Made by a program: the position numbers and the translations under genes
The notes under the pieces: model-generated
Databases searched by the model: none
Told to the model about the DNA's origin: nothing
Seen by the model: only the letters and a program-made list of their open reading frames with translations
Assembly: GCA_016618385.1 (NCBI GenBank)
Contig: JABFOP010000225.1
Location: 79,735 to 143,734, forward strand
Reading direction: 5' to 3'
DNA length: 64,000 nt
Origin: Nymphon striatum
Lineage: Eukaryota
In this document: piece after piece, positions 1-61,866 of the stretch
Layout of the letters: every line of letters begins with the position of its first letter
Numbering within the stretch: position 1 is the first letter of the stretch

Positions 1-488
1 GACACGAATCCGGTCCTTCTGCACATGATCAGGTGATAACTGGAGCCCGAAGCTTCTTTTGTGATCTTTACGGAAAGCCAGGGTATTTATCCCTGGATAA
101 GCTACGCGCCCACTTGTTTGCATCTAGCAAACTAGATCTGCGCTTCCTTCCTCCAACAGAAGATGCGTTTCACTTCCATGTTCTCAGGAGCCTTTGTCAG
201 ATCAGCTTATACAAGCAATCTTCACTCAGCAATCCAGTGCTTCTTCCACCTGAAGAGTATGGCAGAATTGTGGATGGTGACAGGTTAATTCCTGTCATGA
301 AGAGCAAGCCATCAAAGCCTTCCGCTGCGAAGTTGAAGTACCGTAAATGCAAGAAGAAACCGAACTGCCTGAGGAACTGCCCTTGTGCGAAAGCTGCAGT
401 ACCATGCATAATTGCATGTGCCTGCAATGGCGACAGAGAAAAATGTGGACGGCTTCTGACTGATCATTATGATGATGATGATGATTAA
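1..488 (+). CDS. C-terminal part of a repeat-borne protein. It is open to the window edge and ends at TAA 486-488. It carries a CXC-like Cys-rich motif (CKKKPNCLRNCPCAKAAVPCIIACACNG) and a poly-Asp tail encoded by (GAT)n.
   Basis: The frame has no stop back to position 3. The cysteine spacing resembles tesmin/TSO1-type CXC modules. A diverged second copy of the same nucleotide sequence lies at 46790-47183. I cannot assign a family from sequence alone. Confidence 0.5.
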   Translation, partial: HESGPSAHDQVITGARSFFCDLYGKPGYLSLDKLRAHLFASSKLDLRFLPPTEDAFHFHVLRSLCQISLYKQSSLSNPVLLPPEEYGRIVDGDRLIPVMKSKPSKPSAAKLKYRKCKKKPNCLRNCPCAKAAVPCIIACACNGDREKCGRLLTDHYDDDDD

Positions 489-540
489 ATAGTGCTAATG
501 ACACTTTTGTACCGCACAATTAAATATGAAATATATGTAT

Positions 541-1240
541 TAAATTCCCGATTTTAGTAATTTTTTTAAAATTTATGTAAATCTAAAGTGACATTCATGC
601 CAGTAATTTAAGTTCAGTCGGGGCAATTACTTTCCTAAAAACATTAGAGGGATGCAAAGAACATATTTTGGGTGTGAAAATGTAATATATCAACCACAAA
701 GTATAGAAAAATGTTAATTATTTGATAAAGGCGTTACATTTTCAGCTTAACCCACTTTCCGTGACCTTTTGACCTCTGGTGACCTCATGGATGGTCCAAT
801 TGCATTGAATCTTGTTTCATATAAGAGCCAAGCTTATAACAAAAAGAATGAGTGGTAATTTGTTGCATTCACCTCTTTATTATGGGATATATAGTCAAAT
901 GTCGGATTTTTGTGATTTTTTTTAATTTATGCAAATTTAAAGTGACATTCATGCCAGTAATTTAAGTTCAATCGGGGCATTACCTTCCCAAAAACATTAG
1001 AGGGATGCAAAGAACATATTCTGGGTGTGAAAATCTGGATATATTAAGCTTAAAGTAGGGAAAATGTGAAATGTTTGATAAAGGCGTTAAATTTTCAGCT
1101 TGACCCACTTTCCGTAAACTTTTGACCTCTGGTGACCTCATGGATGGTCCAATCAAATTGAATCTTGTTTCATATAAAAGCCAAGTTTATAACAAAAAGA
1201 ATGAGTGGTCATTTGTTGCATTCACCCCATAATAAATGCA
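541..1240 (+). repeat. Tandem duplication of a ~354-bp unit, two copies, just downstream of the CXC ORF. Each copy contains the motif CTTTTGACCTCTGGTGACCT.
   Basis: GTAAATCTAAAGTGACATTCATGCC at 578 recurs as GCAAATTTAAAGTGACATTCATGCC at 932 (354 bp later). TTTTGACCTCTGGTGACCTCATGGATGGTCCAAT is present in both units. This looks like subterminal repeats of the same element as the ORF. Confidence 0.7.
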
Positions 1241-1618
1241 TGAAAATCTCATTTCAGTTTCCCCTACCCCTAATTATTTGGCTCATTTAGGTGACGTCGT
1301 ATCTTCAAACTTCCACCCACAGAAATTATTCGCAAGAGCGTTTGATGAGCAGACCTCTGAAACCTTATGAGGAATGAATATACCTACCTAAAAACACATA
1401 GAAACAAAGTATAGCAAGAAGTGTGACCTCCTTTAAACATTTAGGGCTCTGGGTCCCCTACTAACTGTATATGAGGTTATTTTCACCATTTAATCTTACT
1501 GTTTAAAGTTATACATGATTGAAGACAACTTGTGGTCAGTTAAAATGTAGTTGTCTAACAGGTCTCTATTGTGATTCTTTCCTAGTAGTGTAGTCGTACA
1601 ATCCAAATATGCACCCAA

Positions 1619-2160
1619 ACCTAGAAAAAAATAGGGAAAAGCTGAAACTTGGCAAAATGATAGGGGAACCTATTTAGAATGACCAAAAAAAATGCCCCAT
1701 GATTGCCCCGTGTGGAAACCCCGCTTTGGGCCATTGATTCAAAATGGTGGTTGTTGCCATTGGCCGAAAAGTCGAAAGTTTCATAATCACCTCGAAAAAA
1801 ATAAGGAAAAGCTGATACTTGGCAAAATGATAGGGGAACCTATTTAGAATGACCAAAAAAAATTCCCCATGATTGCCCCTGGTGGAAACCCCATTTTGGG
1901 CCATCGATTCAAAATGGTGGATGTTGCCATTGGCCGAAAAGTCGAAAGTTTCATAATCACCTAGAAAAAAATAAGTAAAAGCTGATACTTGGCAGAATGA
2001 TAGGGGAACCTATTTAGAATGACCAAAAAACAATTCCCCATGATTGCCCCGCGTGGAAACCCCATTTTGGGCCATCGATTCAAAATGGTGGATGTTGCCA
2101 TTGGCCGAAAAGTCGAAAGTTTCATAATCACCTAGAAAAAAATAAGGAAAAGCCGAGCCT
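1619..2160. repeat. Tandem repeat of a ~171-bp unit, about 3.2 copies.
   Basis: CCT(A/C)GAAAAAAATA(A/G)GGAAAAGCTGA recurs at 1619, 1791, 1961 and 2131, with about 90% identity between units. Confidence 0.8.
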
Positions 2161-2421
2161 GGTGTACATAATTGTGTACATGAAATCTAGTATTTTTACA
2201 CAAATCAGTGCCCATATATTTTTCCCTAATTACTGTTGTCTTAAGATAATGTGTATTATAGAAAATAACCTAACAATATGTAACTAATTATGGTTCTAAA
2301 ATAAAGCAATTTTAGTAAACTGAAACTGTGTTATTTTAAAAATGTTTCTCATATTTTACTATTTTTGAGTACTTACTACCTTTGACTGTACAGTTATGCA
2401 CATCCTGTAAATTCCTAATGC

Positions 2422-2910
2422 GGTACTTTGGAACTAAAAATCCAGATGGCGCAATGTAGCAGTTCGGGTCATTTTGCTAAATCCCGATGAACTTCAAGTC
2501 TTCAACTGTGTTTGTTGTGTCGTTCGATTTTCGCAGGTTATAAGCATATTTTTCAAAATCAAAATCAATTTTTTCAAAATGCCGAAGAACAAATACGAAG
2601 GAAAGAGTTTAAATGATTTAACGATCACATGTGTCCGAGAGACCTGATAAATTGGTAGGTTGCCACTTCTCTCTTAATTAATTAATTGCCACCTTCCACA
2701 ATTGAAATCGTGCATGGGTTGACCACGGAAATAAATGGACAGACCTCTTCTTGCACATAGGACGCGACATTCGGTTGGCATGATGTGTAATTGACAAATA
2801 CACCCATAAACTTAGTAACGATAGCACAACACAGTGTTAAATTATCAGAGGCTGACCTGATCCACGTCGCAGCGCCATCTGTACACTCATTATTTAACAA
2901 GGTATCCCAT
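2422..2910. repeat. Left copy of a ~490-bp inverted repeat; its partner is at 14342-14838.
   Basis: The reverse complement of 14342-14838 aligns along the whole length at about 93% identity. Outer and inner boundaries are sharp. The mirrored short ORFs (2682-2900 minus, 14322-14579 plus) are a consequence of the duplication. Confidence 0.85.
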
Positions 2911-14341: not shown

Positions 14342-14838
14342 TTGGGGTACCTTGTTAAATGATGAGTGTACAGATGGCGCTGCGACGCAAAGCAGGTCAG
14401 CCTCTGATAATTTAACACTGTGTTGTGCTAGCGTTACTGAGTTTATGGGTGTTTTTGTCAATTATACATCATGCCAACCGAATGTCGCGTGCCTATGTGC
14501 AAGAACAGGTCTGTCCATTTATGTCCGTGGTCAACCCATGCACGATTTCAATCGTGGAAGGTGGCAATTAATTAATTAAGAGAGAGAAGTGGCAACCTAC
14601 CAATTTATCAGGTCTCTCGGACACATGTGATATTTAAATCATTTAAAATCTTTCCTTCGTATTTGTTCTTTGGCATTTTGAAAAAATTGATTTTGATTTT
14701 GAAAAAAATGCTTATAACCTGCGTAAAATCGAACGAAACAACAAACACGTACAGTTGAAGACTTGAAGTTCACCGGGATTTTGCAAAATGACCTGAGTTG
14801 CTACATTGCGTCATCTGGATTTTTAGTTCCAAAGTACC
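14342..14838. repeat. Right copy of the ~490-bp inverted repeat; its partner is at 2422-2910.
   Basis: See the left copy. Confidence 0.85.
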
Positions 14839-15450
14839 CCATTGTTTCTGTTCCTATATATGTAATGAAATAAATGTTAGAAATATTTACTGTTGAATCC
14901 CCACCAATTTGTAGCATTAGGGTTTTCACTTTCTCGCAAAACAAACAAAAAATCGAATCAAACATACGAAACTAAACTAAAATCAAAAAGGCAGATAAAC
15001 AGAAATAAAAGCTGAGTAAAAGAATTAACTTTTTGATGACTAGAACACTATATTTCCAGTTAGGTATATATACGAACAGTCATCGTTCGATTGTCCTTTC
15101 AGTCTTTTCTAGCACATACAATGATTTTACACGGCGGGTGTTGACAATTTAGCCAACTACTTTAGGAAATTCCAGCAATTTCAGTTGAATCTCAGAAATA
15201 GATTGGGTTTGTGATAGGAATAAAAGTATAGACACTTCAAGTTTCTTACAGTTATTGATTGACTCTTTCCTTTAAAATATGTCATTATAACTTTAAAATG
15301 TATTGACTGTAACATTAAATTGCGAACTTATTGTCTCGTATATCCGCTCAATGATGCCATTTTTAACCTATTTTCGTCATCAATTGAAAAGAAAAAGTTT
15401 TAGCGTTGCAAACAACAACGATTTTAAATCTGTGATAGGATATAATAGTT

Positions 15451-19231: not shown

Positions 19232-19593
19232 GGCCAAAAAAAAAAAAAAGGCTGTGTTTCCGGTAACGGTCTTGACAGACGGGTCGGTAGGTCGATTTTT
19301 ATTATTTTTTTTATTTTCTAGAAATTATATAACCCACCAATTGTACCATTTACTTCATTTGAAGGGCTATCTACATTTGATTCAAAGAAATACAAGTGTT
19401 TAAATCATTTAATTTAGACAAACATCATAGAGAATTTTAGGAGGAATTTTAGGAGGTAGTTTTGTGATGTTTTTTCTTTACCATTTCATGCATTTTACTA
19501 TGTTTTTCCCGAATCATCATACAAACATTTCAGTCGGCGGTAAAATTACACGGTCAGTCGGGTTACCGGAAACACAACATTTTTTTTTTGGCC
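19232..19593. mobile_element. PIF/Harbinger-type (Tourist-like) MITE, copy 1. TIR GGCCAAAAAAAAAA..GCTGTGTTTCCGGTAAC, flanked by TAA.
   Basis: GGCCAAAAAAAAAAAAAAGGCTGTGTTTCCGGTAACGGTC at 19232 is inverted to GGTTACCGGAAACACAACATTTTTTTTTTGGCC ending at 19593. TAA lies on both flanks. Confidence 0.75.
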
Positions 19594-23134: not shown

Positions 23135-23600
23135 TACACTACTGGCCAAAATTAATGAGCCACCTTATGAAAAACACGCATAAATCAATTACTCTTGATT
23201 ATTTGTTAGAGGTCATTCAGAAATTACGTAACGCCGGAGGAGGCGGGGTGTCTGCTCTAGTATTACAGTGTGTTACTAGGGGGTGGAGGGTGTCTGACCA
23301 TGTGTTACATAACACCCTGCCCTTTTTAGAGTGCTTTGGCCTGAAAAAATTGGGGGTCATACTTTTGTTACGTAATTTTTAAGGGGTATGGTTAAGCTCC
23401 GTACACAGTGTTACGGAGGGTGAGGGTGTCAATTTTGGTGAAAAAAAAAAGAGTTACGTAATTTCTGAATGGCCCCTCATATAACATTCAGGAAGAATGG
23501 AAGAAGATTCTCCCATTAGAATATTTAAATAAACTTAAAGAGAGCATGCCAAAGCGTGTAAGCGCCCCATCAAAGCTAACGGGGGCTCAACACAATATTA
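23135..23600 (+). mobile_element. Second, internally deleted Tc1-like copy: 5' TIR plus transposase C-terminal coding remnant.
   Basis: TIR-like TACACTACTGGCCAAAATTAATGAGCCACC at 23135. EEWKKIPLEYLNKLKESMPKRVSA is encoded at 23490-23590. Also an internal 24-bp inverted repeat (GAGGTCATTCAGAAATTACGTAAC / GTTACGTAATTTCTGAATGGCCCCTC). Confidence 0.55.
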
Positions 23601-23949
23601 ATATTACAAACAATTATTTCTTTCCTGGAAATGTGTTTTTCTTTTCAAATGTTTTCAATATGAGTTGTGTTCAATTTAATCTTTCCTTAAGTTGTGGTTT
23701 GAGGAGCACATATGATGGGCCATTCAGAAATTACTTAACTCTTTTTCCGCCCAAATTGACACCCCCACCCCCGTAACACTTAACATGGTCTCTGATCTCT
23801 CTCTGATTTTCAGAAGTAAAATAATAATTCTCGCAGAAATAGTTCGATGATCCAACGGATATTTTAACTTTAAAAGCTCAGCTCAAGTCCGACAAGGTCA
23901 TTTGGTCAATTGAATTTCCTCTACCCCTCACTTTCTTGCTTTTTACAAT

Positions 23950-24130
23950 TGACACTTCGTGTTAAAAAAACGTCCCTACAGGATTCGTGCAATCCAAACC
24001 ACCTTGCTAACGTCACTTTTCTGGTGGCTAACACCCCCACAGACATGATCTAGGGGTCAACAATTTTATAATAGGGGTGTCACTTCAAAATCACTTTTTT
24101 TCACATTTCCAGGCCTCGGATCCCAGACTA
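23950..24130. repeat. Dispersed repeat, two copies (the other at 47565-47720).
   Basis: Shared: TTAAAAAAACGTCCCTACAG.ATTCG..AATCCAAA...CACCCCCACAGACATGAT.TAGGG.TCAAC..TT.ATAATAGGGGTGTCACTTCAAAATCA. Confidence 0.6.
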
Positions 24131-26940: not shown

Positions 26941-27373
26941 CAAATACTGAAAATCTATCTCAGAAGTTTGATTTTTTCATTCAGGCCTTTCTTTCCGCAC
27001 TTAGAATTACGCCATTAATTGTAATTGCAACGCAGCTTGATACTGTCTGAATAAATATTTGACGGTAGACATGGATCTGACTTACGATAAAACTTTTATG
27101 TGATTGGGAATTAGTTTCTTAGAGCTTTAGTTGAGATATTTTTTATACTTTTCAAATTGAAAGATCTATATATATTTTTTTTGACCTTATTGCACTAAAC
27201 TCACATGGGTTTTATGGCAAGCTGGAGGCCGTGTCCATCCGACTGAATGCAGTGCTTCTCTGTTAGAACTACAAGCCATAGTGAACGAGTCCTATTTCTC
27301 ACACCGCAGTCAAGAATAGGCGTTCCACGCAGGTGTTACACTTCACCGGGATCACCCTACTCTTTATTCGAAT

Positions 27374-29890
27374 TAGTCCAGTCGATGAGGGCTCAAACTT
27401 GGAACAAATTTGTTTAAAGATGAATTTGGTCTTAAATGAAGCCCACATATATGGAGAATGTTGCTATAAAATTCCACCCTCGTCTTCTTTGGGGAAAAAA
27501 AATACAGGCCTGCCTCTAAACCCGTCAATAACCCATCTTACCACAAGGGTATTGGGGTAGGGCAAATATAAATTCGAATTTGTCAGTAACCAGTAGACAA
27601 GTTTTGACAAATTTATGACCCAACAAAATGTTTGTATTGATGAGTGCTACAGTTTAAATGAGGTCACATGCATTTATGTTAATTAAGTTGGCCTCCAGAG
27701 GTCAAAAGGTCACAAAATTACACATTTGCCCAAAATTAATTTTGGGATACCGGACCAAAATACTCTATAAAACCCAAATTTATCAAATTCTTTTCACCTA
27801 AATTGATTTATGCATTAGCCAAGGCAATACAAAAGTGATTTTAAGCGTCAAATGAGAGATGTTTCATGTAATTACGTAATGATCACAAATGGAAATTGCT
27901 CAAATTTTAAAAAGCATGGATCAGTTCACTTGTGTGGTACATAGAATTTCTCGATCACCAATGGACCATTTTCTACAAAGGACCCATCAAAATGTTTGTC
28001 TTCATCTGTGTTACAGTTTAAATGAGGTCACATGCAATTATGTTAATTAAGTAGGTCACCAGAGGTCAAAGGTCATTACATTTGACATTTTTCCAAAATT
28101 TAGATACCAAACGTATAAAACCAAAAGGCATTAGATTATTTTCACCTAACTGGATTTATGTATTAGCCAAAGCAATAAAAAAGTGATTTTAAGCGTCAAA
28201 TGAGAGATGTTTCATGTAATTACGTAATGATCACAAACTTCTTTTCCTGTAATTTTAAAAAACATGGATCAGTCCACCTGTGGGGTAAGGTATAAATATA
28301 GAATAAATTATAATTTCTCGATGACCAATGGCCCATTTTCCAAAAATATCTCATCATAATGTTTATCTTGATCAGTGCTACAGTTTAAATGGGGTCCTAT
28401 GCAATTATGGTAATTAAGTAGGTCACCAGAAGTTAAAAGGTGACACTGTCAGTCACAAGCACCTATTTTCTGAATGAAAGCAAGATGGCTGTTAGATGAC
28501 GGTTACTCAAAGCAAGTGATGTTATTGACGAGATTATGGCCGATGATGACAGCAGGGACAACTGGGACGGGGACGCCAACGACACGTTCCCTAACAAGGA
28601 GAAAGATGGCACAGAGACAGGTCACCTCAACTCAGCATGCCATGGGATTGGGAGAGAACCACCAGATTTCAACCCAGGATGGTGGAGAATTTAGTCCAGA
28701 TCCCAAATAATCCACAGCCAATTCACTTCTTCTCATTGTACTTAACAGATCACATTCTCCACCACTGTACTGCTGAGACAAACAGATATGCTGACCAGTA
28801 CCTTACTGTCAATCATGCCACAATGAAATGTAGATCCTGCAGACACCAATGGAGAAACGTGAGGAATAACCAAATGAAAAACAATTTCTGGTCATTTTAA
28901 TCTTTCAAGGGATAGTCTACAAACCCAGAATCAGTAAGTATAGGGTAAATCACCAACTATTCGCAACACCCAATTTTTGGGATGTTTTTATACTGAGACA
29001 GGCCTGTCGCACCCATTTTTTGGGGTGAGGCCTGTCTTTTTAATTCTCTATCTTCCTGTGAAAGGGACATCTCTGGGACACCAGTTTATTGGTTTATTTC
29101 CCGTATATGCTATGGATACTAACACAATATGCGAACAGGACAGTAATTTTGGGCGAGGCCTAAGATTGATGACCTTTTGACCTCTGGTGACCTAATTAAT
29201 TTATAAATGTTCATAATGTTGTTTTAGACGAAATGTTAAAGTTTGTGATCTTTTGACCTCTGGTGACCTACTTAATTATTAACATAATTGAGTATGACCT
29301 CATTTAAACTGTAACGCTAATGAAGATAAATATTTTGATGGGTCATTTGTAGAAAATGATCCATTGGTGATTCAGAAATTCTATTTTACATTTACCCTGC
29401 CCCACAAGTGGACTGATTCATGCCTTTTAAAATTAGAGCAAATTCCATTTCTAATAATTACGTAATTACATTCAACATCTCTCACTTGACGATAAACTCA
29501 CTTTTTTATTGACTTAGCTAATAGATAAATCCATTTAGGTGAAAAGAATCTGATGCATTTGGGTTTTATAGAGTATTTTGGTCCGGTATCCAAATGTTGT
29601 GCAAATGTATACTTTTGTGACCTTTTGACCTCTGGTGACCTACTTAATTAATATAATTGTATGTGAGCTCATCTAAACTGTAGCACTCATCAATACATTT
29701 GCCCTTCCCCAATACTCTTATGGTCCGATGGGTTATTGACGGGTTTAAAGTAATTTTTTTCCCTAAGAGGACGAAGGTGGAATTGTATACCAACATTCTC
29801 AATATATGTGGGCTTCATTTAAGACCGAATTCAGCTTTACACAAATTTGTTCCAGGTTAGACCTAATTTCAGCCTTCATCGACTGGACTA
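27374..29890. mobile_element. ~2.5-kb non-autonomous DNA transposon with ~1.1-kb inverted arms built from ~330-bp subrepeats. Termini are TAGTCCAGTCGATGA...TCATCGACTGGACTA. It sits inside a SINE-A copy and has an apparent 3-bp (AAT) flanking duplication.
   Basis: 27374-28450 is the reverse complement of 29170-29890. Each arm holds 2-3 copies of a unit containing TTTTGACCTCTGGTGACCT. The SINE sequence ...CACCCTACTCTTTATTCGAAT | element | AGTGAAGTGTGTTCTTTAACG is continuous across the insertion. Confidence 0.7.
28528..28900 (+). pseudogene. Remnant of the N-terminal region of a piggyBac-type transposase, frameshifted, inside the long-TIR element.
   Basis: MADDDSRDNWDGD...NKEKDG..., then in a shifted frame ...PNNPQPIHFFSLYLTDHILHHCTAETNRYADQYL. 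This fits the conserved piggyBac/PGBD N-terminal block (FF.LF.TDE....IV.ETN.YA.Q). No DDE core follows. Confidence 0.6.
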
Positions 29891-29984
29891 AATAGTGAAG
29901 TGTGTTCTTTAACGTACAGAGGGTGTGACTCTCTTCTACACGAGACTTCTATTAACTATATGTAATTGTTATGTAATGCAAGTG

Positions 29985-30284: not shown

Positions 30285-31421
30285 CAGTGAATGTGTATAA
30301 TGTCTGATTCACTCAGGGAATGTGTATATTGTCTGAAAGTTTCAGGGAATATACATATTCCCTGAAATTTGGACCATTTTGTTATACAGATTCCCTGAAT
30401 CGAATTTTCAATGATTGAACATGATGTTTTTATAGACTTCTTTTCGGTATTCACATCGTCGATGGAGTATAGTTCGTAAGTGCATAAATCAAATTGATTC
30501 CTGGTATATTTTCCACTCAGCATGCCACATTTAACTGCAATCGTATAATTGTCATTTTCGTCATGTCCATAATCATGCCCATGATATTCCTTGGATCTCC
30601 ACGACCCCTATCCACCATTGGTATCGGAACTGTGACATTGTTACCAACGTTTCCGCGGTTCATAATACGACGACTTCGTTTTACCATACGTTCAGCTTGT
30701 AAAAGCTGAACTAACCTAAGGCCAAAAAAAAAAATGTTGTGTTTCCGGTAACCCGACCGACCGTGTAATTTTACCGCCGACTGAAATGTTTTTATGATGA
30801 TTCGGGAAAAACATAGCAAAATGCATGAAATGGTAAAGAAAAAACGTCACAAAATTGGATATTGGTGGGTTATATAATTTCTAGTGAATAAAAAAAAAAA
30901 AAAAAAAAAAAAAAAACCGACCTACCGACCCTGCCGTATGTCAAGACCGTTACCGGAAACACAGCCTTTTTTTTTTTTGGCCTAACCTAATTTCTATAAT
31001 ATAACATTTTTCGATCAGCCTAGATCCAAACAGGTTAGGTAAGGTTTCCTCAACTAAACTAAATAATAGTCTCAATAACCTAACACTTTTAATTTATGTT
31101 TTTTTCTGTTAAGTTTCTGATTTTCTGTTTTTTTCTGTTAAGTCAGGTGAGGTGAGGTGAGGTCAGGTTTTTGATAATTTTTTTTATATTTTGTTTTTTT
31201 TTAAATTTTTTCCAACAAGTTTTTCATTGTCTGTGTCATTGAAAATACGATTCAGGGAATCTGTATAACAAAATGGTCCAAATTTCAGAGAATATGTATA
31301 TTCCCTGAAACTTTCAGGGAATATACACATTCCCTGAGTGAATCAGACATTATACACATTCCCTGAAATTTTCAGGAAATATACATATTCCCTGGTTATA
31401 CACATTCACTGTAACATATAT
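30285..31421. mobile_element. Tc1/mariner-type non-autonomous element (~1.1 kb) with ~130-bp TIRs starting CAGTGAATGTGTATAA and TA flanking duplication.
   Basis: 30285-30410 is the reverse complement of 31290-31421. TA sits immediately outside both termini (GTTA|CAGTG...CACTG|TAAC). The PIF-type MITE copy 2 is nested inside. Confidence 0.75.
30720..30982. mobile_element. PIF/Harbinger-type MITE, copy 2, nested inside the Tc1/mariner-type element. An internal poly-A is present.
   Basis: Same TIRs as 19232-19593 (GGCCAAAAAAAAAAATGTTGTGTTTCCGGTAAC ... GTTACCGGAAACACAGCCTTTTTTTTTTTTGGCC). Flanked by TAA. Confidence 0.75.
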
Positions 31422-34445: not shown

Positions 34446-36309
34446 TAACGGTATTTATTAGCTAAGTTAAAGCTTATATGCTATACTTCATATCAGCTAA
34501 TTAATTATTTAATAGTAGAAGATAAGGTTCTGGATAGCGCTCTAGATGATAGCATCAAAATATATGTCTTTGTTACAACCACTAAGTCTGTACGCTTGTC
34601 TTATGATTATCTTAAACACATAAGAAAAGTCAATTTTGAAAGTTCCGTTTTTTTTTTTAATATTTGCGGGTGTTGTAGAATGATCTGCTGCTGTCTTTTT
34701 TATTCTCTAAAGGTACTTTACCCATGGGTACTTAAGTTTACCCATCGGTTTTTAAGGTCCCATCACGCCTAACACATGGTAATAAAACATACCCTGAGAC
34801 AAGAATGCAAATGGAAATAATAACACTAATAATAATTTCCCAATCAGGAATGAATTATTTTTTTGACCACTGAATTTCGTTCAAATTTTGTTCAAAAGAA
34901 AGTGAAGGACATAGAATTTGAAGTGAACACGAATTGTTTAACAGACATCATTAGCATCTATTTTTAGCAAAGTGTGAAAGCAACCTTTCCCATTATGTTT
35001 TTCGCTAATGCGTATTGGTTCCAGTACATTGGCGTCAGAGCTTATCTCGTGTCGTCCGGCATGCACAAAATTGGCCATTTTATTAATCTTCCAGCTAAAT
35101 GCAAAATTCTGGCATTACACTCGAACGATCATCGACCACACATTCTGTAATAGCTCATAACATACATAGCCAGTACATAATTAACATGATCATTATTATA
35201 TCTTTAGTGAAGGTAGTTGTTATCATAAATTGTAGTACTTAAAGGCAGCTTTCTTGTCCTGGTCGTCGTTTATTGGAAGCACAAACATCTCAGAGAATGA
35301 AAAATGATATTGCCAGCTTTTGAGAAGAGTATTACAATTTCTTGAATAAGAAATTATTACGGACTGTTAATCTTTGCATACGCTATTTACTTCTGCCTTA
35401 TTTAGTCCTTACACTCATCTCATATTTATGCTTCTTATTAATGGGATTTTGAATCCATATCAAATCATTGATTCTTTTCAATACAATTCGATTACCTTGT
35501 ACTTTTCTTAGACTACAAAATGTTTTTTTTTTTTATTATATTTACTGACATTTGAAAAAAAAATAAAAATAGATATATTAAGAACTGCAATTGGAAACTC
35601 TACTTTGGCTGAAAAATAATTTAAATTGCAGAACAATTGTGTTTTATGATTCATATTTCAAAATTGTTGCTTATCCGAATTTCTTAATTTTTGTCGTTCT
35701 TGACTGTATAGTCCAGACAACTGATCCTCAAAAGAGGCTGAACTCGGACAAAATTCATACAGAAACTTATGTTTTCTGAAAGTTCAATGTCTGTAATATT
35801 CATACACAAAAGTTTCCAAAAGTTCTTGCCTGGGAAACCCTACAATGCCAAGATGGCGTCAAGATAGCTGCCATAGCTTCACATGCCAGCTTCACTCCTC
35901 TTGTTTTTGGAACCAATAAAGATATGGGATGAAGATATGGGAATGCCAAAAGTTTGTCTCTGCATTATCTACAAAATTAGCAGAGAAACAAAACGAAGAG
36001 TATTCGGTGATAATTTCATGGCTTCGTGTTCGTTTTATCTATCGCTATTACAAGGGCGACACTCCTCTGCGTCAGAGGTTCGGGAACCCCATTTCGGAAT
36101 CGAGATCATGAAATTTTAGGGAAGATTTTAGACTTAACAACGTTGAAAGCAACATTTACTGATCTTTCGTGTTGGTCAAATTGTATATAAATTGTATATA
36201 AATTGAATTATTGTTTTCACAATCACTGTTTAAATTATGTTCATATATTTAGTTTTTAATTTTTTATTATTTTTACTTTACTTCCATTTTACTGTATGGC
36301 TATGTAAGT

Positions 36310-39300
36310 CGCTTTGTTTTTTCTTATAAATAAATTAGAGTATTACTCTTAGCTATTAATGAATTTCTAGGTTTAGAGGCTCCAACAAACCAACTTCCAA
36401 CATCTAATAGTTTGTATCATAGAAATAGCTTCTAATTTCAATTTTGTGGTGGTTGTCGGTTATAGGTCATATATTCTCAGGTGAGAATGAAAATCAAAGA
36501 ATAAGTATTTTATAGGTCCAATTTCGTACTCTTATTAGCGCATATCGCTTAGATGGCTGTTAGAAGTACATTTATTGATGCTATTATTCTATTTTGTGGC
36601 ATTAGTTAAAAGTCTAGTTTTTTCATAAATCTTCCATCAAATGTTCAGTTATTAATGAATTTCACGGTTTATAGGCTCCAACAAACCAACTCGGAACATC
36701 TAATAGTTTGTATCATAGAAATAGCTTCTAATTTCAATTTTGTGGTGAATGTCGGTTATAGGTCATATATTCTCAGGTGAGAATGAAAATCGAAAATTTA
36801 CTATTTTATAGGTCCAATTCGTACTCTTAAAAGCGCAAATCGCTTAGATGGATGTTAGAATACAGTTATTGATGCTATTATTCTATTTTGTAAAAGTGCT
36901 AGTTTTTTCATAAATCTTGCATCAAATGTTCAGTTATTAATGAATTTCACGGTTTATAGGCTCCAACAAACCAACTCGGAACATCTAATAGTTTGTATCA
37001 TAGAAAAAGCTTCTAATTTCAATTTTGAGGCGGTAGTCGGTTATAGGTCATATATTCTCAGAATGAAAATCGAAAAAAAATAAAAGAATAAAAATAAAGT
37101 AATTTATAGGTCGAATTCGTACTCCAAATCGCGTATATGAATCAATCTTATATGAACGTATATGAACCAATCTTAGATGGCTGTAAGAAGTACAGTTATT
37201 GTTGCTATTAATCCATTTTGTGACATTAGTTAAATGGCGAGTTTTTTTTATAAATTTTGCATCAAATTTTCAGTTATTAATAAATTTCACGGTTTAGAGG
37301 CTCCAACAAACCAACTTCGAACATCTAATAGTTTGTATCATAGAAATAGCTTCTAATTTCAATTTTGTGGCGGTACTCTTATTTACTTATTCACTTAAAT
37401 TTACTTAGAATTCGTACTCTTAATAGCGCATATCGCATAGATGGCTGTTAAAAGTACATTTATTGATGCTATTATTCTATTTTGTGGCATTAGTTAAAAG
37501 GCTAGTTTTTTCGTAAATCTTCCATCAAGTTCAGTTATTAATGAATTTCTAGGTTTAGAGGCTCCAACAAACCAACTTCGAACTTCTAATAGTTTGTATC
37601 ATAGAAATAGCTTTTAATTTCAATTTTGTGGCGGTAGTCGGTTATAGGTCATGTATTCTCAGGTGAGAATGAAAATCGAAAATAAACTATTTTATAGGTC
37701 CAATTCGTACTCTTAATAGCGCGTATCGCATAGATGGCTGTTAGAATACAGTTATTGATGCTATTATTCTATTTTGTAAAAGTGCTAGTTTTTTCATAAA
37801 TCTTGCATCAAATGTTCAGTTATTAATGAATTTCTAGGTTTAGAGGCTCCAACAAACCAACTTCGAACTTCTAATAGTTTGTATCATAGAAATAGCTTTT
37901 AATTTCAATTTTGTGGCGGTAGTCGGTTATAGGTCATGTATTCTCAGGTGAGAATGAAAATCGAAAATAAACTATTTTATAGGTCCAATTCGTTCTCTTA
38001 AAAGCGCAAATCGCTTAGATGGCTGTTAGAATACAGTTATTGATGCTATTATTCTATTTTGTGGCATTAGTTAAAAGGCTAGTTTTTTCGTAAATCTTCC
38101 ATCAAATGTTCAGTTATTAATGAATTTCTAGGTTTAGAGGCTCCAACAAACCAACTTCGAACTTCTAATAGTTTGTATCATAGAAATAGCTTTTAATTTC
38201 AATTTTGTGGCGGTAGTCGGTTATAGGTCATGTATTCTCAGGTGAGAATGAAAATCGAAAATAAACTATTTTATAGGTCCAATTCGTACTCTTAATAGCG
38301 CGTATCGCATAGATGGCTGTTAGAATACAGTTATTGATGCTATTATTCTATTTTGTAAAAGTGCTAGTTTTTTCATAAATCTTGCATCATATGTTCAGTT
38401 ATTAATGAATTTCTAGGTTTAGAGGCTCCAACAAACCAACTTCGAACTTCTAATAGTTTGTATCATAGAAATAGCTTTTAATTTCAATTTTGTGGCGGTA
38501 GTCGGTTATAGGTCATGTATTCTCAGGTGAGAATGAAAATCGAAAATAAACTATTTTATAGGTCCAATTCGTTCTCTTAAAAGCGCAAATCGCTTAGATG
38601 GCTGTTAGAATACAGTTATTGATGCTATTATTCTATTTTGTAAAAGTGCTAGTTTTTTCATAAATCTTGCATCAAATGTTCAGTTATTAATGAATTTCTA
38701 GGTTTAGAGGCTCCAACAAACCAACTTCGAACATCTAATAGTTTGTATCATAGAAATAGCTTTTAATTTCAATTTTGTGGCGGTAGTCGGTTATAGGTCA
38801 TGTATTCTCAAGTGAGAATGAAAATCGAAAATAAACTATTTTATAGGTCCAATTTCGTACTCTTAATAGCGCGTATCGCATAGATGGCTGTTAGAAGTAC
38901 ATTTATTGATGCTATTATTCTATTTTGTGGCATTAGTTAAAAGTCTAGTTTTTTCATAAATCTTCCATCAAATGTTCAGTTATTAATGAATTTCACGGTT
39001 TATAGGCTCCAACAAACCAACTCGGAACATCTAATAGTTTGTATCATAGAAATAGCTTCTAATTTCAATTTTGTGGTGAATGTCGGTTATAGGTCATATA
39101 TTCTCAGGTGAGAATGAAAATCAAAAATTTACTATTTTATAGGTCCAATTCGTTCTCTTAAAAGCGCAAATCGCTTAGATGGATGTTAGAATACAGTTAT
39201 TGATGCTATTATTCTATTTTGTAAAAGTGCTAGTTTTTTCATAAATCTTGCATCAAATGTTCAGTTATTAATGAATTTCACGGTTTATAGGCTCCAACAA

Positions 39301-45300: not shown

Positions 45301-46480
45301 CGCGTATATGAATCAATCTTATATGAACGTATATGAACCAATCTTAGATGGCTGTAAGAAGTACAGTTATTGTTGCTATTAATCCATTTTGTGACATTAG
45401 TTAAATGGCGAGTTTTTTTTATAAATTTTGCACCAAATTTTTAGTTATTAATAAATTTCACGGTTTAGAGGCTCCAACAAACCAACTTCGAACATCTAAT
45501 AGTTTGTATCATAGAAATAGCTTCTAATTTCAATTTTGTGGCGGTAATCTTATTTACTTATTCACTTAAATTTACTTAGAATTCGTACTCTTAATAGCGC
45601 ATATCGCATAGATGGCTGTTAAAAGTACATTTATTGATGCTATTATTCTATTTTGTGGCATTAGTTAAAAGGCTAGTTTTTTCGTAAATATTCCATCAAA
45701 TGTTCAGTTATTAATGAATTTTTAGGTTTAGAGGCTCCAACAAACCAACTTCGAACATCTAATGGTTTGTAATATAGAAATAGCTTCTAATTTCAATTTT
45801 GTGGTGGTAGTCGGTTATAGGTCATGTATTCTCAGATGAGAATGAAAATCGAAAAATAAGTATTTTATAGGTCCAATTCGTACTCTTAATAGCGCATTTC
45901 GCTTAGATGCCTGTTAGAAGTACATTTATTGATGCTATTATTCTATTTTGTGGCATTAGTTAAGAGGCTAGTTTTTCCATAAATTTTGCATCAAATTTTC
46001 AGTTATTAATGAATTTCACGGTTTATAGGCTCCAACAAACCAACTCGGAACATCTAATAGTTTGTATCATAGAAATAGCTTCTAATTTCAATTTTGAGGC
46101 GGTAGTCGGTTATAGGTCATATATTCTCAGGTGAGAATGAAAATCGAAAATTAAGTATTTTATAGGTCCAATTTCGTAATCTTATTAGCGCATATCGCTT
46201 AGATGGCTGAAAGAAGTACTGATGGCTGATTGATGTTATTTTGTGGCATTAGCATTAAAGGGCTAGTTTTTCCATAAATATTTCATCAAATGTTCAGTTA
46301 TTAATTAATTTCACGATTTAGAGGCTCCAAGGCTCCAACAAACCAACTTCGAACATCTAATAGTTTGTATCATAGAAATAGCTTCTAATTTCAATTTATT
46401 GGCGGTAGCCGGTTATAGGTCATATATTCTCAGGTGAGAATGAAAATCAAAAATTAAATATTTTATAGGTCCAATTCGTA
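36310..46480. repeat. Satellite DNA array, ~10.2 kb, about 35 monomers of 261-340 bp (mode ~285-300), with higher-order repeat structure.
   Basis: The monomer landmark GTTATTAATGAATTTC(T/C)A(G/C)GTTTA(G/T)AGGCTCCAACAAACCAACT recurs at 36352, 36652, 36937, 37277, 37538, 37822, 38117, 38402, 38683 ... There are two main alternating variants (GTGGCATTAGTTAAAAGGCTAGTTTTTTCGTAAATCTTCC versus GTAAAAGTGCTAGTTTTTTCATAAATCTTGC). A ~900-bp three-monomer block marked by the insertion AAAAAAAATAAAAGAATAAAAATAAAG recurs at 37076, 39408, 43782 and 45246. Confidence 0.95.
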
Positions 46481-46789
46481 CTGATGACCTCCATGACCAT
46501 GGATTGGGTGGTGTTTTCATTGACTGGGGCTAAAGAGACACTCTCTTATCACAGGTGTCCTCGAATTGTTACTTGAACGTAATATTTGCACCTCTATCTA
46601 CAGTTTTATACTGTTTGACCTATATGACCTACAGCTTGTCAAGTGACCGCTTGTTTCAGGTGATTAACATTGAAAATAAATCGTAGATGGCAGGCGTCTG
46701 CCCATCGCAGGATCTGTACAAGACAGGTTTTCCTGTGTTCAGTGCATATGGGCATTTTGTAAATATAATATAATATAATATAGCAAGGT

Positions 46790-47540
46790 ATTCATCCTTG
46801 AATAAGCTACGCGTCCACTTGTTTGCATCTATCTTGTTTGTATCTCCAACAGAAGATGAGTTTCACTTCCACGTTCTCAGGAACCTTTGTCAGATCAGCT
46901 TCACTCAAATCTAGTGCAAATCTAGTGCTTCTTCCACCTGAAGACTATGGCAGAATTGTGGATAAATAATAGGTTAATTTCTGTCAAGAAGAGCATGCCA
47001 TCAAATCCTTCTACTGCAAAGTTGAAGTACTGCTATTGCAAGAAAAACCGAACTGATTGGGGAATTTCCTTTGTGCGGAAGCTGAAACATGCATTATTGC
47101 ATATGCCAGAGAAAGTCGACATAGGAAAATATAAACGGTTCATTACTGATGATGATGGTGACACTTTTGTACCGTATACTTAAATATTAATTATATGTAG
47201 TTTTTGCTATTATTTTTCAATTTATGCAAATCTAAATTTAATTACTGCTATTCAATCCATTCAGTCCTGTGCCATAACAAATTAGAGGAATGCAAAGATG
47301 CAACATATTTTGGGTTATTTTGGGTTATTCTGGATATATCAGGATATATCTGGATATATCAAGTATGTAAAAATGTGAATTATTTGATAAAGTTGTTAAA
47401 TTTTCAGCTTAACCAACTTTTATATTAAACAAGTTGTTAAGTAACAACTTGTTTCATAAAAAAGTTAAATTTTGTGAGGTAAATTTGTTGCATTTACTCC
47501 TTCCTGTATTATGGGATTTCAATTGAATTTCCCCTACAAT
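46790..47540 (+). mobile_element. Second, degenerate copy of the window-start element: the CXC-ORF 3' part (46790-47183, with stops) plus downstream region ending ...TTCCCCTAC.
   Basis: TTCATCCTTGAATAAGCTACGCGTCCACTTGTTTGCATCT matches 85-125. ...PSTAKLKY.YCKKNRTD... parallels ...PSAAKLKYRKCKKKPN... Both copies end near ...(C)AGTTTCCCCTAC (1268 / 47538). Confidence 0.7.
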
Positions 47541-50438
47541 TTTTTATTTTTTGTCCCCATGTTAAAAAAAACGTCCCTACAGAATTCGCGAAATCCAAAT
47601 TACGTTTTCACTTTTATTTGTGTCTAACAACCCCCACAGACATGATATAGGGATCAAACATTTAATAATAGGGGTGTCACTTCAAAATCAAATTTTGAGG
47701 TCTCGAATCACTGACTTATTAGTAAACCAACAAGTTAACCCTCTAAGCAACATACCATGCACGCTTGATCTTGATAAAGTACTACTTTTTGTAACCATTT
47801 GTGGCGCTCTGATGCAAACGAGATAGTTCAATAAATACAGTTGAGTTATCGCAGTTACAGCGCAGTTACAGCGCAGTTACCTTTGGATCTATGGTAATAT
47901 TCACCCAGAGACATCGGAATCTAAAACTATTTTCTTTATTTGTATTTATACTATTTTCTGGTCATACCTACCAACAAGACCGTAAATACATCACTGAAAT
48001 TATTTGTTAATGAAATTACTTATAGTTATAATTAATTAATTAATTAGTTATAGTGATGAATAAATAATTTTAGAGATGAATTTATGGTCTTGTCCATACG
48101 TCCAGATACATCCAGGTAGGTGTGACCAAAAAATAGTAGAAATACAAATGTATAAAATAGTCTGATGTCTGTCTCCCAGTGCCATTTGTTGTTGGTTTCT
48201 TAAAATTATTAAACATAATTATTTATAATATCTGTCTAGCATGCACAATTAGATCTTTAGATAGTAAATTTATGTTAAAATGAAGTTGTTTATATATAGC
48301 TTAATATCTAAACTATGAGACTGTTATTCTTTACTACCATTTGCTTTTTTTTAGGAAGTTAATCCATTTGAAACGAAATCAGCTTAGCATACACATTTTC
48401 ACCCATTTTCATTATATCTGCATTTTTAAGAAGAATTAAAAGTGCAAATTACTGTGTTAATTACATTAGACCTACATGATTAAGATTTTCCAGCCAATAA
48501 GGTTAAGCAGAAAACATTTATAATAAAATAATTTTAATTTGAAAGTTTATTTTATAGCCAGGAACAAGTCCATTCAATTATTCTTTAATCTCATTTCATC
48601 CACAATATACCCAGAAAATAATTTCTTTTTTGAAGAAAGTTTAAGTGTGAACATGAGTAGAATTTACTTCTTCCAAGCATTATCATTCCACTAGTACTTT
48701 AAAAATACTGTGACAGAAAACACTTTGCTTCACTTCACGGTAACTTTTTAACTTGATAAAACCAAAAAGTGAGAGTAATTTTAAGAACAAATTTCATCAA
48801 AAGTGAACATATAACTCTCAGTGATCTCCAGCAGTTCCTTGGGGATGGCATGTTTTTACTTGACAATGAGGTATATGATGTAACAGAATAATCATATAAA
48901 TGTAAAGAGAGTGTCTCTAAAATTACTTTAAAAACTCTTTTACTGAAACCTTTACCTTGTAACTGCCTTTTACAATGGTACAACTTTTCCGTTCAATAAT
49001 ACTTGGAATATAATTTAGACACTCTTGGTTGGTTTGAATTCAAATATATACACTCTTTTGTTTGATAATTCGATTGTACAGCAAGTACAGATGTATTCAT
49101 ATGTGATAGGATCTGTTTATACTAGCTGTTTGTACCTTTGGAAGCTGGAGAACAATCTACAATAAATGACGGTGTGCACACCTCAGGAAACTATTTAATT
49201 TATCCCCACTAGCCACTATATATAGCATTAGTTATATATTGTCAACATATATCAAGTATAAGCTAAATTCAAACCAACCGAAAGTGTCAAATTATATTCC
49301 CAGTATTATTCAATGGACGCAAAGTATGACCACTTCACCAAAACCAATACAGCAAAAATAGGGAACACGAAGAATCCTTGAAGAAATCATGGATTTGCAG
49401 CTAAACCAATTATGGGGTAGCATGGATATTAAAGTACAACTACCAATATAGCAAATGTGTCCCAAAATATTAACAAAATCAGAAAAAGAATCGGCTTCCT
49501 TTCACCCAGACAAAAATTTGCCTACATGATAAAAAAAAAATCCAATTGATCAAACTTGTGAAGAACAGTCAAAGAAAACTTTAAAGTTCTGCAGTTGACA
49601 GTTGACAGTTGACAGTTGGATATATATTGTCCAGAATACATCCAGAATACAACCATACATCGATCAATATTTCGAATCTGCTAAATTTATGTTTTTAGAT
49701 TCAGTGACATCAACCATTTTTTGCTGATCAAAAGCTGATGGCAACTAAAATCTAAAATCCATTTAATTCTAAATTTTAAAACCAATTCATGTTAGTGTTC
49801 GATATAAGCATTAAGAATTTAAGCATGCTATGATTAAAGTCTCGTTTTACAGCTTGTGCTGAAAGCCAGATAATTCGCTTAAAATGTTTGCTTTTCATAT
49901 TTAGATAATTGAATGGAACCATAGAACAAAATGTGAAAGTTAAATTGAAAATTAGATATGACAAGCAAATGGAAAGTTAAATAGCCTCTATTTCAAGAGC
50001 CATATCCTTTTTATTTCGATCCCTTAATTGAACAGTTCTCAGTTACTCAGCTATAATTCGAAAGACAGCATCGTCTCAAATATATATATATATATATACA
50101 CGAGTTGAAAATTCATTTAGAATTCGAAGTACAAATTATTAGAATTTCTTTTAGAACTCCCTTTTTGAATTTGTTGGTGAAATCTTGGTGAAATCTTTAA
50201 CAAAACAATAGTAACAGAAATTACAATTCGTAAAACGGAAAAACTGTTGAAAAACTGCAAAATATAATAGAAACTGGTCAGCTCAGGAAACCTGCTCCGC
50301 ATAAATGATGAACTGCGAAGATAATTTTACTAAATGAAACCGAAGACTGACGACCCAAAGGCCGATCTGGATTAATATGGAGACAACAAATAGAAGATAT
50401 CATGAATAAAATAAATATATCTTTAAGGGGCCTGTTAC

Positions 50439-61496: not shown

Positions 61497-61866
61497 GGCC
61501 AAAAAAAAAAATGTTGTGTTTCCGGTAACCCGACCGACCGTGTAATTTTACCGCCGACTGAAATTTTTTTATGATGATTCGGGAAAAACATAGTAAAATG
61601 CATGAAATGGTAAAGAAAAAACGTCACAAAACTACCTCCTAAAATGCTTTAAATAATAATCTTCTCTTTTCTCTTTTCTCTATGATGTTTGTCTAAATTA
61701 AAAGATTTAAACACTTGTATTTCTTTGAATCAAATGTAGATAGCCCTTCAAATGAAGTAAATGGTATAATTGGTGGGGGGGGATCCTAGTTAATAATAAA
61801 AAAAAAAAATAAAAAAATCGACCTGTCAAGACCGTTACCGGAAACACAGCAATTTTTTTTTTTGCC
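61497..61866. mobile_element. PIF/Harbinger-type MITE, copy 3, flanked by TTA.
   Basis: GGCCAAAAAAAAAAATGTTGTGTTTCCGGTAACCCGACCGACCG ... GACCGTTACCGGAAACACAGCAATTTTTTTTTTTGCC. TTA on both flanks. Confidence 0.75.

What the first reader, a model, noticed from the sequence alone, without database searches (positions are those of the whole stretch)
1..1270. Repeat-borne ORF ending in a CXC-like cysteine cluster, followed by 354-bp subterminal tandem repeats, present at both ends of the window
The ORF reaching the left window edge ends ...PSKPSAAKLKYRKCKKKPNCLRNCPCAKAAVPCIIACACNGDREKCGR and a (GAT)n-encoded poly-Asp tail. It is immediately followed by two 354-bp tandem units. A degenerate copy (46790-47540) has the same layout and the same 3' boundary (...TTTCCCCTAC). 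The 354-bp units share the TTTTGACCTCTGGTGACCT motif with the subrepeats of the 27.4-29.9-kb element. My hypothesis is that the Cys-rich module is a DNA-binding domain of an element-encoded protein, possibly a transposase C-terminus, that recognises these subterminal repeats. I could not place the family from memory. KDZ-type or CXC-bearing transposases are one possibility.
Basis: partly seen in the sequence, partly recalled or inferred. Interest (0 to 1): 0.55.

Follow-up and report, generated by a model that had tools for sequence, protein, structure and literature searches.

The report
3' end of an AcademX transposon
The ORF tail with the cysteine cluster and the repeats after it are the 3' end of an ordinary Academ-type (AcademX) DNA transposon, a described family whose single large protein is reported to end in this cysteine-rich zinc finger.

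Summary
The sequence facts hold: an ORF tail (3-485, stop 486-488) ending in a Cys cluster and poly-Asp, two 354-bp tandem units, a degenerate second copy, and a shared 19-nt motif. Two claims fail. The second copy is not at the window's end. '...TTTCCCCTAC' is a conserved internal block, not the element boundary. The real 3' termini lie about 190 bp further on, at 1463 and about 47718, and a third terminal fragment ends at 24130.

The element belongs to the AcademX lineage of the Academ superfamily (Kojima 2020): one roughly 1600-aa protein holding a DDE transposase, an XPG/FEN-like nuclease and a C-terminal 'Cys8' zinc finger. Its termini are 5'-TAGTC...GACTA-3'. Near-identical proteins are Nymphon striatum (sea spider) gene models. 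The 354-bp units are a lineage-specific tandem duplication of the inner part of a long terminal inverted repeat (TIR).

Two small additions came out of the check. The Cys module keeps nine invariant Cys with tesmin/LIN54-like spacing, though similarity stays below significance. A TIR block, GTGACCTTTTGACCTC, is conserved across lineages and is a candidate protein-binding site. Whether the Cys module binds it is untested. KDZ is not supported. Verdict: a new member of a known kind, of low interest.

The parts
3..485 (+). Last 161 codons of the AcademX polyprotein ORF, cut by the window edge. It covers the post-H3TH helical part of the nuclease domain, a linker, the Cys module and the poly-Asp tail. 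The stop codon is at 486-488.
   Evidence: Translation. It is 95.7% identical to residues 456-616 of Nymphon striatum KAG1708468.1 (P0013) and 46-48% identical to the C-termini of full-length or near-full-length relatives (P0167 1614 aa, P0168 1626 aa, P0025 975 aa).
342..446 (+). Cys-rich module RKCKKKPNCLRNCPCAKAAVPCIIACACNGDREKC. This is the 'putative Cys8 zinc finger' of AcademX. In this copy the first of nine family-invariant Cys is mutated to Arg.
   Evidence: Nine Cys are invariant in 33 diverse family members (A5). Intact N. striatum copies read CKCKKKPNC.... Pfam TCR matches are sub-threshold, and the only PDB profile hit is LIN54 at E=0.39.
533..886 (+). Subterminal unit 1 (354 bp). 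It is a tandem duplicate of the inner part of the long TIR and carries Box 1, GTGACCTTTTGACCTC, at 761-776.
   Evidence: TRF and blastn. It is homologous to the inner TIR of L001, L002, L005 and L008.
887..1272 (+). Subterminal unit 2, running into the unduplicated TIR. It carries a Box 1 variant, GTAAACTTTTGACCTC, at 1114-1129 and Box 2, TTTCCCCTACCCCTA, at 1258-1272.
1273..1463 (+). Outer part of the 3' TIR up to the true terminus ...GGGCTCTGGGTCCCCTACTA. The flank that follows is ACT.
   Evidence: It is collinear with copy B, fragment C and both TIRs of L001 and L002 (alignment A8; coordinates).
46774..47718 (+). Copy B, a 5'-truncated and decayed copy. It has a coding remnant at 46774-47107, one unit that has lost Box 1, Box 2 at 47528-47537, and an outer TIR ending ...CACTGACTTA.
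23906..24130 (+). Fragment C, an isolated 3' terminal TIR fragment ending in the canonical ...GGATCCCAGACTA.
   Evidence: Blastn to copy B (76%) and to the L001 TIR (79%). Sequence.
27374..29890 (.). Probable non-autonomous AcademX-type relative. Its termini are TAGTCCAGTCG...CGACTGGACTA, flanked by AAT at 27371-27373 and 29891-29893. Its inverted arms are built of roughly 365-bp subrepeats carrying Box 1 and Box 2. The centre holds a piggyBac-like remnant.
   Evidence: The termini match the published Academ-6_ADi termini (TAGTCCAGTC...GACTGGACTA, TSD TTA) in Kojima 2020 Suppl. Fig. S2.

Best explanation
Window 1-1463 is the 3' portion of an autonomous, now slightly decayed, AcademX DNA transposon, probably in Nymphon striatum or a close relative.

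The full element is about 6.4 kb in relatives. It encodes one roughly 1600-aa protein, in this order: N-terminal CxxC-type modules, an RNase-H-fold DDE transposase, a FEN/XPG-like 5' nuclease, a helical region with the LPPTEDAF motif, a Cys9 (CXC-like) zinc module, and an acidic tail. The ends are long terminal inverted repeats of 360-540 bp in relatives, finishing 5'-TAGTC...GACTA-3'.

In this lineage a 354-bp piece of the inner TIR has been tandemly duplicated. This doubled a conserved block, Box 1 (GTGACCTTTTGACCTC[nnn]TGAC).

Inferred mechanism: the DDE domain cuts and joins at the TAGTC/GACTA ends, and published relatives make 3-bp target duplications. Box 1 and Box 2, placed in inverted orientation in both TIRs, are the likely protein-binding sites that assemble the ends. 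The fused FEN/XPG-like nuclease processes a flap or gap intermediate. Which protein module reads Box 1 is not known.
For: Family description:
[quoted passage not shown] Transposase:
- Published Academ-1_AMi and Academ-1_AP transposase domains hit L001 7314-8421 by tblastn (E about 1e-17 to 3e-18), upstream of the homologue of the window ORF in the same frameshifted reading frame.
- The family consensus keeps DNxD, (T)xDQA(I)Y, RMGGFH and WTDMALEQ. These correspond to motifs in the published alignment.

Nuclease:
- The AF2 model of relative P0025 has mean pLDDT 87.7.
- Its top 18 Foldseek PDB hits are all FEN/XPG-superfamily 5' nucleases, including EXO1 (E 4.6e-4), Xrn1, Rat1, T5 FEN and Rad2/XPG.
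- Asp/Glu positions in the IDAM, DRYD, HEEAD, DTD and GCD motifs are invariant (A6).

Cys module:
- Nine Cys are invariant.

Termini:
- L001, L008 and L009 read TAGTCTGGGAGCC...GGCTCCCAGACTA.
- Window fragment C ends ...CCCAGACTA.
- Published Academ-4_ADi reads TAGTCTGGGAGC...CTCCAGACTA.

Repeats are part of the TIR:
- Alignments A4 and A8 and blastn show this.

Box 1 conservation:
- In a three-lineage alignment of the terminal ~570 bp, 28% of columns are identical overall. Box 1 scores 14 of 16 and holds the longest identical run, CTTTTGACCTC.
- Box 1 is exact at both ends, in inverted orientation, in L001, L008 and L009 (L010/L011 show the same but are fold-back assembly artefacts). It is exact at the 3' end and off by one base at the 5' end in L002. 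It also occurs downstream of the ORF in L005, L012 and L015.

Scale and host:
- The family is large, with 4230 representative proteins at E<=1e-3.
- The closest proteins are N. striatum gene models.
Against: - The window holds no transposase or nuclease catalytic residues. The architecture is inferred from relatives that are 46-96% identical over the shared C-terminus.
- No 3-bp TSD is visible around L001, L008 or L009. It cannot be tested for window copies A, B and C because their 5' ends are absent.
- Copy A's terminus reads CTACTA rather than GACTA.
- HMMER profiles of the nuclease region find no XPG Pfam or PDB match, so only fold comparison supports that domain.
- L013 and L014 (67% aa identity) lack Box 1 downstream.
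- Box 1 conservation could partly reflect shared ancestry rather than selection.
Confidence: 0.9

Rival explanations
1. One reading: the C-terminal Cys module is the sequence-specific DNA-binding domain that recognises the subterminal repeats (Box 1) and so targets the transposase to its own ends.
For: - The module has nine invariant Cys with tesmin/LIN54-like spacing.
- The only PDB profile hit is the LIN54 DNA-binding CXC domain.
- 20 of 33 members give sub-threshold Pfam TCR matches.
- CXC domains of LIN54 and MSL2 bind DNA (PMC4974476, PMC4248295).
- Box 1 is conserved in both TIRs.
Against: - All similarity scores are below significance (E 0.39; best Pfam E 0.0071 against a gathering score of 23.5 bits).
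- The module is single rather than tandem, and it lacks the Tyr before the fourth Cys that gives LIN54 its specificity (PMC4974476).
- N-terminal CxxC...C/HxxC modules exist in the full-length protein, which is the usual location of TIR-binding domains (general knowledge).
- No binding data exist.
Confidence: 0.25
2. KDZ-type (Kyakuja/Dileera/Zisupton) or another CXC-bearing transposase family.
For: Only the presence of a CXC-like Cys cluster.
Against: - No KDZ or other transposase Pfam model hits the L001 ORF pieces, P0025, P0014, P0031 or P0019.
- None is precomputed for 54 relatives.
- The transposase domain matches published Academ sequences.
- The Cys module is C-terminal, after a FEN-like nuclease. 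From my recollection (not checked here), KDZ CxC modules are N-terminal.
Confidence: 0.02
3. The 354-bp repeats are an unrelated satellite or MITE that happens to lie next to the ORF, and the ORF is a host or domesticated gene.
For: - The motif also occurs in another element at 27.4-29.9 kb.
- The N. striatum annotation lists these ORFs inside host gene models.
Against: - The same order, ORF then unit then Box 2 then TAGTC-type terminus, recurs in copy B and in L001, L002, L005, L008 and L009 from other samples.
- The units are homologous to TIRs present in inverted orientation at both ends of 6.4-kb elements.
- Multiple decayed copies exist.
- The host gene models are chimeras: RPAP2, CASC3 and RRP36 domains sit N-terminal to Academ fragments.
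Confidence: 0.03

Closest known systems
[quoted passage not shown]
   Same: - One long ORF with a DDE transposase (DNxD, DQA, GGFH and ALEQ motifs), an XPG/FEN-like nuclease and a C-terminal Cys-rich zinc finger.
- 5'-TAGTC...GACTA-3' termini, with pyrimidine at the 5' end and purine at the 3' end.
- Long TIRs, as reported for some Academ families.
- A 3-bp AAT duplication around the non-autonomous relative in the window.
   Different: - The host is new: near-identical proteins are Nymphon striatum gene models.
- A 354-bp piece of the inner TIR is tandemly duplicated.
- A 3-bp TSD could not be shown for the autonomous copies.
- The window copy has lost the first Cys of the zinc module.
Tesmin/TSO1/LIN54 CXC domain (Pfam PF03638; LIN54-DNA structure 5FD3, PMC4974476) and the MSL2 CXC Zn3Cys9 domain (PMC3447885)
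   Same: - The Cys spacing CxC-x(3-5)-C-x3-CxC-x6-C-x3-CxC aligns in register with LIN54's [28 protein letters not shown].
- Nine Cys are present, as in the MSL2 Zn3Cys9 cluster.
- The module is basic and rich in Lys.
   Different: - It is a single module, not a tandem pair.
- There is one residue fewer between Cys3 and Cys4, so the DNA-reading Tyr of LIN54 is absent.
- Similarity is sub-threshold, and no structural match was found.
FEN1/EXO1/XPG(Rad2)/T5 FEN 5' nuclease superfamily
   Same: The fold of the domain just upstream of the window fragment in relatives matches this superfamily (Foldseek probability 1.00 for EXO1, Rad2 and T5 FEN). It has an H3TH-like LSGCDxxSxxxxxGK motif and invariant acidic residues.
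   Different: Sequence similarity is undetectable by HMMER. The domain is fused to a transposase. The window contains only its C-terminal helices.

Membership tests
AcademX (Academ superfamily) | Academ-type DDE transposase domain (DNxD ... DQA ... G/A/E/QxxH ... E), homologous to published Academ transposases | tested here: met
   Met in relatives, not in the window itself. Published Academ-1_AMi and Academ-1_AP domains hit L001 7314-8421 by tblastn at E about 1e-17 to 3e-18. No hit in the window, because the window starts downstream of this domain.
AcademX (Academ superfamily) | XPG-type nuclease domain fused C-terminal to the transposase | tested here: met
   Met by fold only, and in a relative. 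The AF2 model of P0025 has pLDDT above 95 in the domain. Its top Foldseek hits are EXO1, Xrn1, Rat1, T5 FEN and Rad2/XPG. HMMER profile searches were negative. The near-identical N. striatum proteins carry the same motifs.
AcademX (Academ superfamily) | C-terminal putative Cys8 zinc finger | tested here: met
   Present at window 342-446. Nine Cys positions are invariant in 33 members. The window copy has 8 of 9, with Cys1 changed to Arg.
AcademX (Academ superfamily) | Termini with a 5' pyrimidine and a 3' purine. Published animal AcademX termini read TAGTC...GACTA. | tested here: met
   The 3' ends read ...CCCAGACTA (fragment C at 24130; L001, L002, L008, L009)...CCCCTACTA (copy A at 1463) and ...CTGACTTA (copy B). 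The 5' ends of L001, L008 and L009 read TAGTCTGG. Published termini were seen.
AcademX (Academ superfamily) | 3-bp target-site duplication | tested here: inconclusive
   AAT/AAT flanks the 27374-29890 relative. Flanks of L001, L008 and L009 do not match; these may be decayed or chimeric contigs. Window copies A, B and C lack 5' ends.
AcademX (Academ superfamily) | Single long ORF without introns | tested here: met
   P0167 is a 1614-aa uninterrupted ORF on a 6473-bp contig (L082 746-5590). This is a relative, not the window copy.
Tesmin/TSO1-like CXC domain (Pfam PF03638) | Significant match to the family profile | tested here: inconclusive
Tesmin/TSO1-like CXC domain (Pfam PF03638) | Conserved DNA-reading Tyr before the fourth Cys (LIN54 Y536/Y610), and a tandem pair of CXC modules | tested here: not met
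   The family has C-x3-C (for example CLRNC) where LIN54 has C-x4-C with the Tyr (CLKNYC). There is only one module per protein. The role of the Tyr is described in PMC4974476.
KDZ (Kyakuja/Dileera/Zisupton) transposases | KDZ transposase domain and CxC modules detectable by Pfam | tested here: not met
   No such Pfam family hits the L001 ORF pieces or P0025, P0014, P0031 and P0019. None is precomputed for 54 relatives.

The most novel reading that the evidence does not exclude
The 'Cys8 zinc finger' that closes every AcademX polyprotein is a true single CXC (Zn3Cys9) DNA-binding domain related to those of tesmin/LIN54 and MSL2. It reads the conserved TIR block GTGACCTTTTGACCTC..TGAC and so docks the adjacent FEN/XPG-like nuclease at the transposon ends. 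This would be a transposase architecture in which end recognition and flap processing are carried by a C-terminal nuclease-CXC unit.
Probability: 0.15. Interest if true: 0.5.

Novelty: new member of a known kind. Interest (0 to 1): 0.22.

Why it matters
The main value is for annotation. The finding places a repeat family of a sea-spider-like genome in AcademX. It fixes the true element terminus. It also shows that several N. striatum gene models (RPAP2, CASC3, RRP36) are chimeras with transposon fragments.

Academ is one of the least studied eukaryotic DNA transposon superfamilies, and no mechanism has been shown experimentally. Two observations give concrete reagents for a first biochemical test of how Academ ends are recognised: the conserved TIR boxes and the CXC-like reading of the 'Cys8' finger. 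Neither observation is surprising enough to change how the family is understood.

Tried and rejected
- Pfam scans found nothing above threshold. I scanned the 161-aa window fragment, six ORF pieces of L001/L002, and P0025, P0014, P0031 and P0019. The only hits were host domains in chimeric gene models.
- HMMER profile of the nuclease region against PDB and Pfam found no XPG or FEN match. Only the fold search succeeded.
- Profiles of the Cys module against PDB gave no significant hit: a squash inhibitor at E 0.16 with the small profile and LIN54 at E 0.39 with the 33-member profile.
- I looked for 5' ends of this family in the window. None was found other than the 27.4-kb element.
- I looked for 3-bp TSDs around L001, L008 and L009. 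None was found. L010 and L011 have reverse-complementary flanks, which marks them as fold-back assembly artefacts.
- L082 has no TIRs and is probably a transcript.
- A literature search for any link between Academ and CXC/tesmin found none. One query was wasted on prefix matches to 'academic' and 'CXCR'.
- I considered the 27.4-29.9 kb element as a piggyBac derivative because of an internal piggyBac-like remnant (E 0.013). I rejected this for the element as a whole because its termini, TSD and TIR boxes are AcademX-like.

Full report
**1. Observation**

The window is AT-rich (about 33% G+C) and repeat-rich, like an invertebrate genome.

- Frame 3 of the + strand is open from position 3 to 485 with a TAA stop at 486-488. 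It ends ...KLKYRKCKKKPNCLRNCPCAKAAVPCIIACACNGDREKCGRLLTDHYDDDDD.
- TRF reports a 353-bp period, 1.9 copies and 89% matches at 550-1226. Blastn aligns 533-873 with 887-1226 at 88%.
- A decayed second copy aligns at 46784-47420 (71%). Its coding remnants lie at 46774-47107.
- The motif TTTTGACCTCTGGTGACCT occurs 8 times with up to 3 mismatches, against 0.02 expected. Two are in the units and six are in the inverted arms of the 27.4-29.9 kb element.

So the raw observation is real. Two details are wrong. The second copy is not at the window's end, and '...TTTCCCCTAC' is not the 3' boundary (section 3).

**2. What the ORF is**

The 161-aa fragment has no Pfam hit and only ten close homologues in the indexed search. 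An exhaustive profile search found 4230 representative proteins at E<=1e-3.

The best matches, 92-96% identical to the window, are NCBI gene models of the sea spider Nymphon striatum. Several are chimeras in which RPAP2, CASC3 or RRP36 domains are fused to fragments of this ORF.

Contigs carrying homologues show that the fragment is the end of a long ORF.
- In L001 a frameshifted ORF of about 5 kb sits between 363-bp or longer inverted repeats.
- Intact relatives are about 1600 aa. For example, P0167 is 1614 aa as one uninterrupted ORF.

Kojima (2020, PMC7165386) describes exactly this architecture for the AcademX lineage of the Academ superfamily. [quoted passage not shown] I tested each feature.
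- **Transposase.** The published Academ-1_AMi and Academ-1_AP transposase domains (Data S3 of that paper) hit L001 7314-8421 by tblastn at E about 1e-17 to 3e-18. This lies upstream of the homologue of the window ORF. The consensus of 53 relatives keeps DNxD, xDQAIY, RMGGFH and WTDMALEQ.
- **Nuclease.** HMMER sees nothing. An AlphaFold2 model of relative P0025 (mean pLDDT 87.7, above 95 in this domain) gives EXO1, Xrn1, Rat1, T5 FEN, Rad2/XPG, ExoIX and mycobacterial FenA as its top 18 Foldseek PDB hits. Acidic residues in the IDAM, DRYD, HEEAD, DTD and GCD motifs are invariant.
- **Cys module.** Nine Cys are invariant in 33 diverse members, with the pattern CxC-x(2-5)-C-x3-CxC-x(5-6)-C-x3-CxC-x(2-6)-C. 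Intact N. striatum copies read CKCKKKPNC. The window copy reads RKCKKKPNC, so its first Cys is lost.

No KDZ or other transposase Pfam family matches any member.

**3. The repeats and the true terminus**

The 354-bp unit is homologous to the inner part of the long TIRs of related elements (L001, L002, L005, L008). L008 and L001 have no tandem duplication there. The two units in the window are therefore a lineage-specific tandem duplication inside the TIR.

The block TTTCCCCTACCCCTA (1258-1272) aligns with an internal TIR block of L001, L002, L005 and L008 and of the 27.4-kb element. Homology then continues about 190 bp to these ends:
- ...GGGCTCTGGGTCCCCTACTA at 1463 in copy A
- ...CACTGACTTA at about 47718 in copy B
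- ...GGATCCCAGACTA at 24130 in a third, isolated terminal fragment
- ...GGCTCCCAGACTA in L001, L002, L008 and L009

The 5' ends of L001, L008 and L009 read TAGTCTGGGAGCC.

Published Acropora AcademX termini are the same type. Academ-4_ADi reads TAGTCTGGGAGC...CTCCAGACTA with TSD ATT. Academ-6_ADi reads TAGTCCAGTC...GACTGGACTA with TSD TTA (Suppl. Fig. S2).

The 27374-29890 element has termini TAGTCCAGTCG...CGACTGGACTA and is flanked by AAT on both sides. Its arms carry both conserved TIR blocks. It is best read as a non-autonomous AcademX-type relative that holds a piggyBac-like remnant in its centre.

TSDs could not be confirmed for L001, L008 or L009. They cannot be examined for the window's three 3' ends.

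**4. Conserved TIR boxes**

I aligned the terminal ~570 bp of three lineages (window, L001, L008). Only 28% of columns are identical in all three. The block (C/T)GTGACCTTTTGACCTC...TGAC scores 14 of 16 and contains the longest identical run, CTTTTGACCTC.

- In L001, L008 and L009 it is exact at both ends, in inverted orientation. L010 and L011 show the same, but those contigs are fold-back assembly artefacts. In L002 it is exact at the 3' end and differs by one base at the 5' end.
- It also lies downstream of the ORF in L005, L012 and L015.
- It is absent from more distant families, and from L013 and L014.

This pattern fits a cis-acting protein-binding site. Shared ancestry may contribute to it.

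**5. Is the Cys module a CXC domain, and does it bind the repeats?**

Evidence for a CXC relationship:
- The family profile's only PDB match is the LIN54 CXC domain (5fd3). The alignment is in register over eight Cys, but E = 0.39.
- 20 of 33 members match Pfam TCR below threshold, best E 0.0071.

Evidence against, or neutral:
- The module is single.
- It lacks the Tyr that LIN54 inserts into the minor groove (PMC4974476).
- The full-length protein has N-terminal CxxC...C/HxxC modules, which are an alternative TIR-binding domain.

I put it at about 0.25. No paper in the searchable library links Academ to CXC or tesmin.

**6. Verdict**

This is the 3' end of an AcademX transposon, a known kind, in a host where the closest matches are N. 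striatum gene models.

The minor new points are the tandem duplication within the TIR, the conserved Box 1 and Box 2, and the CXC-like spacing of the 'Cys8' finger. Interest is low.

Noticed in passing
window 36306-46482: A 10-kb satellite array of about 35 units with alternating 285- and 294-bp spacing. Recurring 601-603-bp steps suggest a higher-order pattern. It ends about 300 bp before the truncated Academ copy B.
   Followed up: no
window 1619-2153: A 170-bp tandem repeat, 3.1 copies at 95% identity, begins about 155 bp after the true Academ 3' terminus. It is outside the element.
   Followed up: no
window 2417-2909 and 14343-14843: Inverted repeats of about 490 bp (90-97% identity, in four collinear pieces) bracket about 11.4 kb. 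This may be another large TIR element.
   Followed up: no
window 27374-29890: The centre of the non-autonomous Academ-like element (ORF 28637-28900) resembles the start of a piggyBac transposase domain (Pfam DDE_Tnp_1_7, E 0.013, sub-threshold). It may be a captured or nested fragment.
   Followed up: partly
window 19440-19586, 30728-30862, 61505-61633: A dispersed repeat whose translation is 82-93% identical to the C-terminal extension (residues 643-691) of N. striatum gene model KAG1714726.1. That model therefore reads through the Academ stop into another repeat.
   Followed up: no
N. striatum proteins P0013, P0014, P0019 (KAG1708468.1, KAG1680227.1, KAG1679025.1): Gene models named RRP36, RPAP2 and CASC3 are chimeras. 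P0014 and P0019 carry host Pfam domains (RPAP2_Rtr1, Btz) N-terminal to AcademX fragments. P0013 (RRP36) has the Academ fragment followed by a Lys-rich C-terminal tail and was not Pfam-scanned. This is an annotation artefact worth flagging.
   Followed up: partly
window 767-785, 1120-1138, 29175-29193 and others: Box 1 reads TGACCTctggTGACCT. Formally this is a direct repeat, with a 4-nt spacer, of the AGGTCA nuclear-receptor half-site on the opposite strand. It is probably coincidental, but it means copies of this transposon scatter DR4-like sites.
   Followed up: no
L010 and L011 (JGI metagenome contigs): The 5' and 3' flanks are exact reverse complements of each other, and the 3' TIR equals the 5' TIR. 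This looks like a fold-back assembly artefact, so these contigs cannot be used for TSDs.
   Followed up: partly
window ~23500-23620: By eye, a Tc1/mariner-like transposase C-terminus (...LKESMPKRVSAPSKLTGAQHNIN) ends just upstream of Academ terminal fragment C. The 20-24 kb region also has higher G+C (0.39-0.40). Neither point was tested.
   Followed up: no
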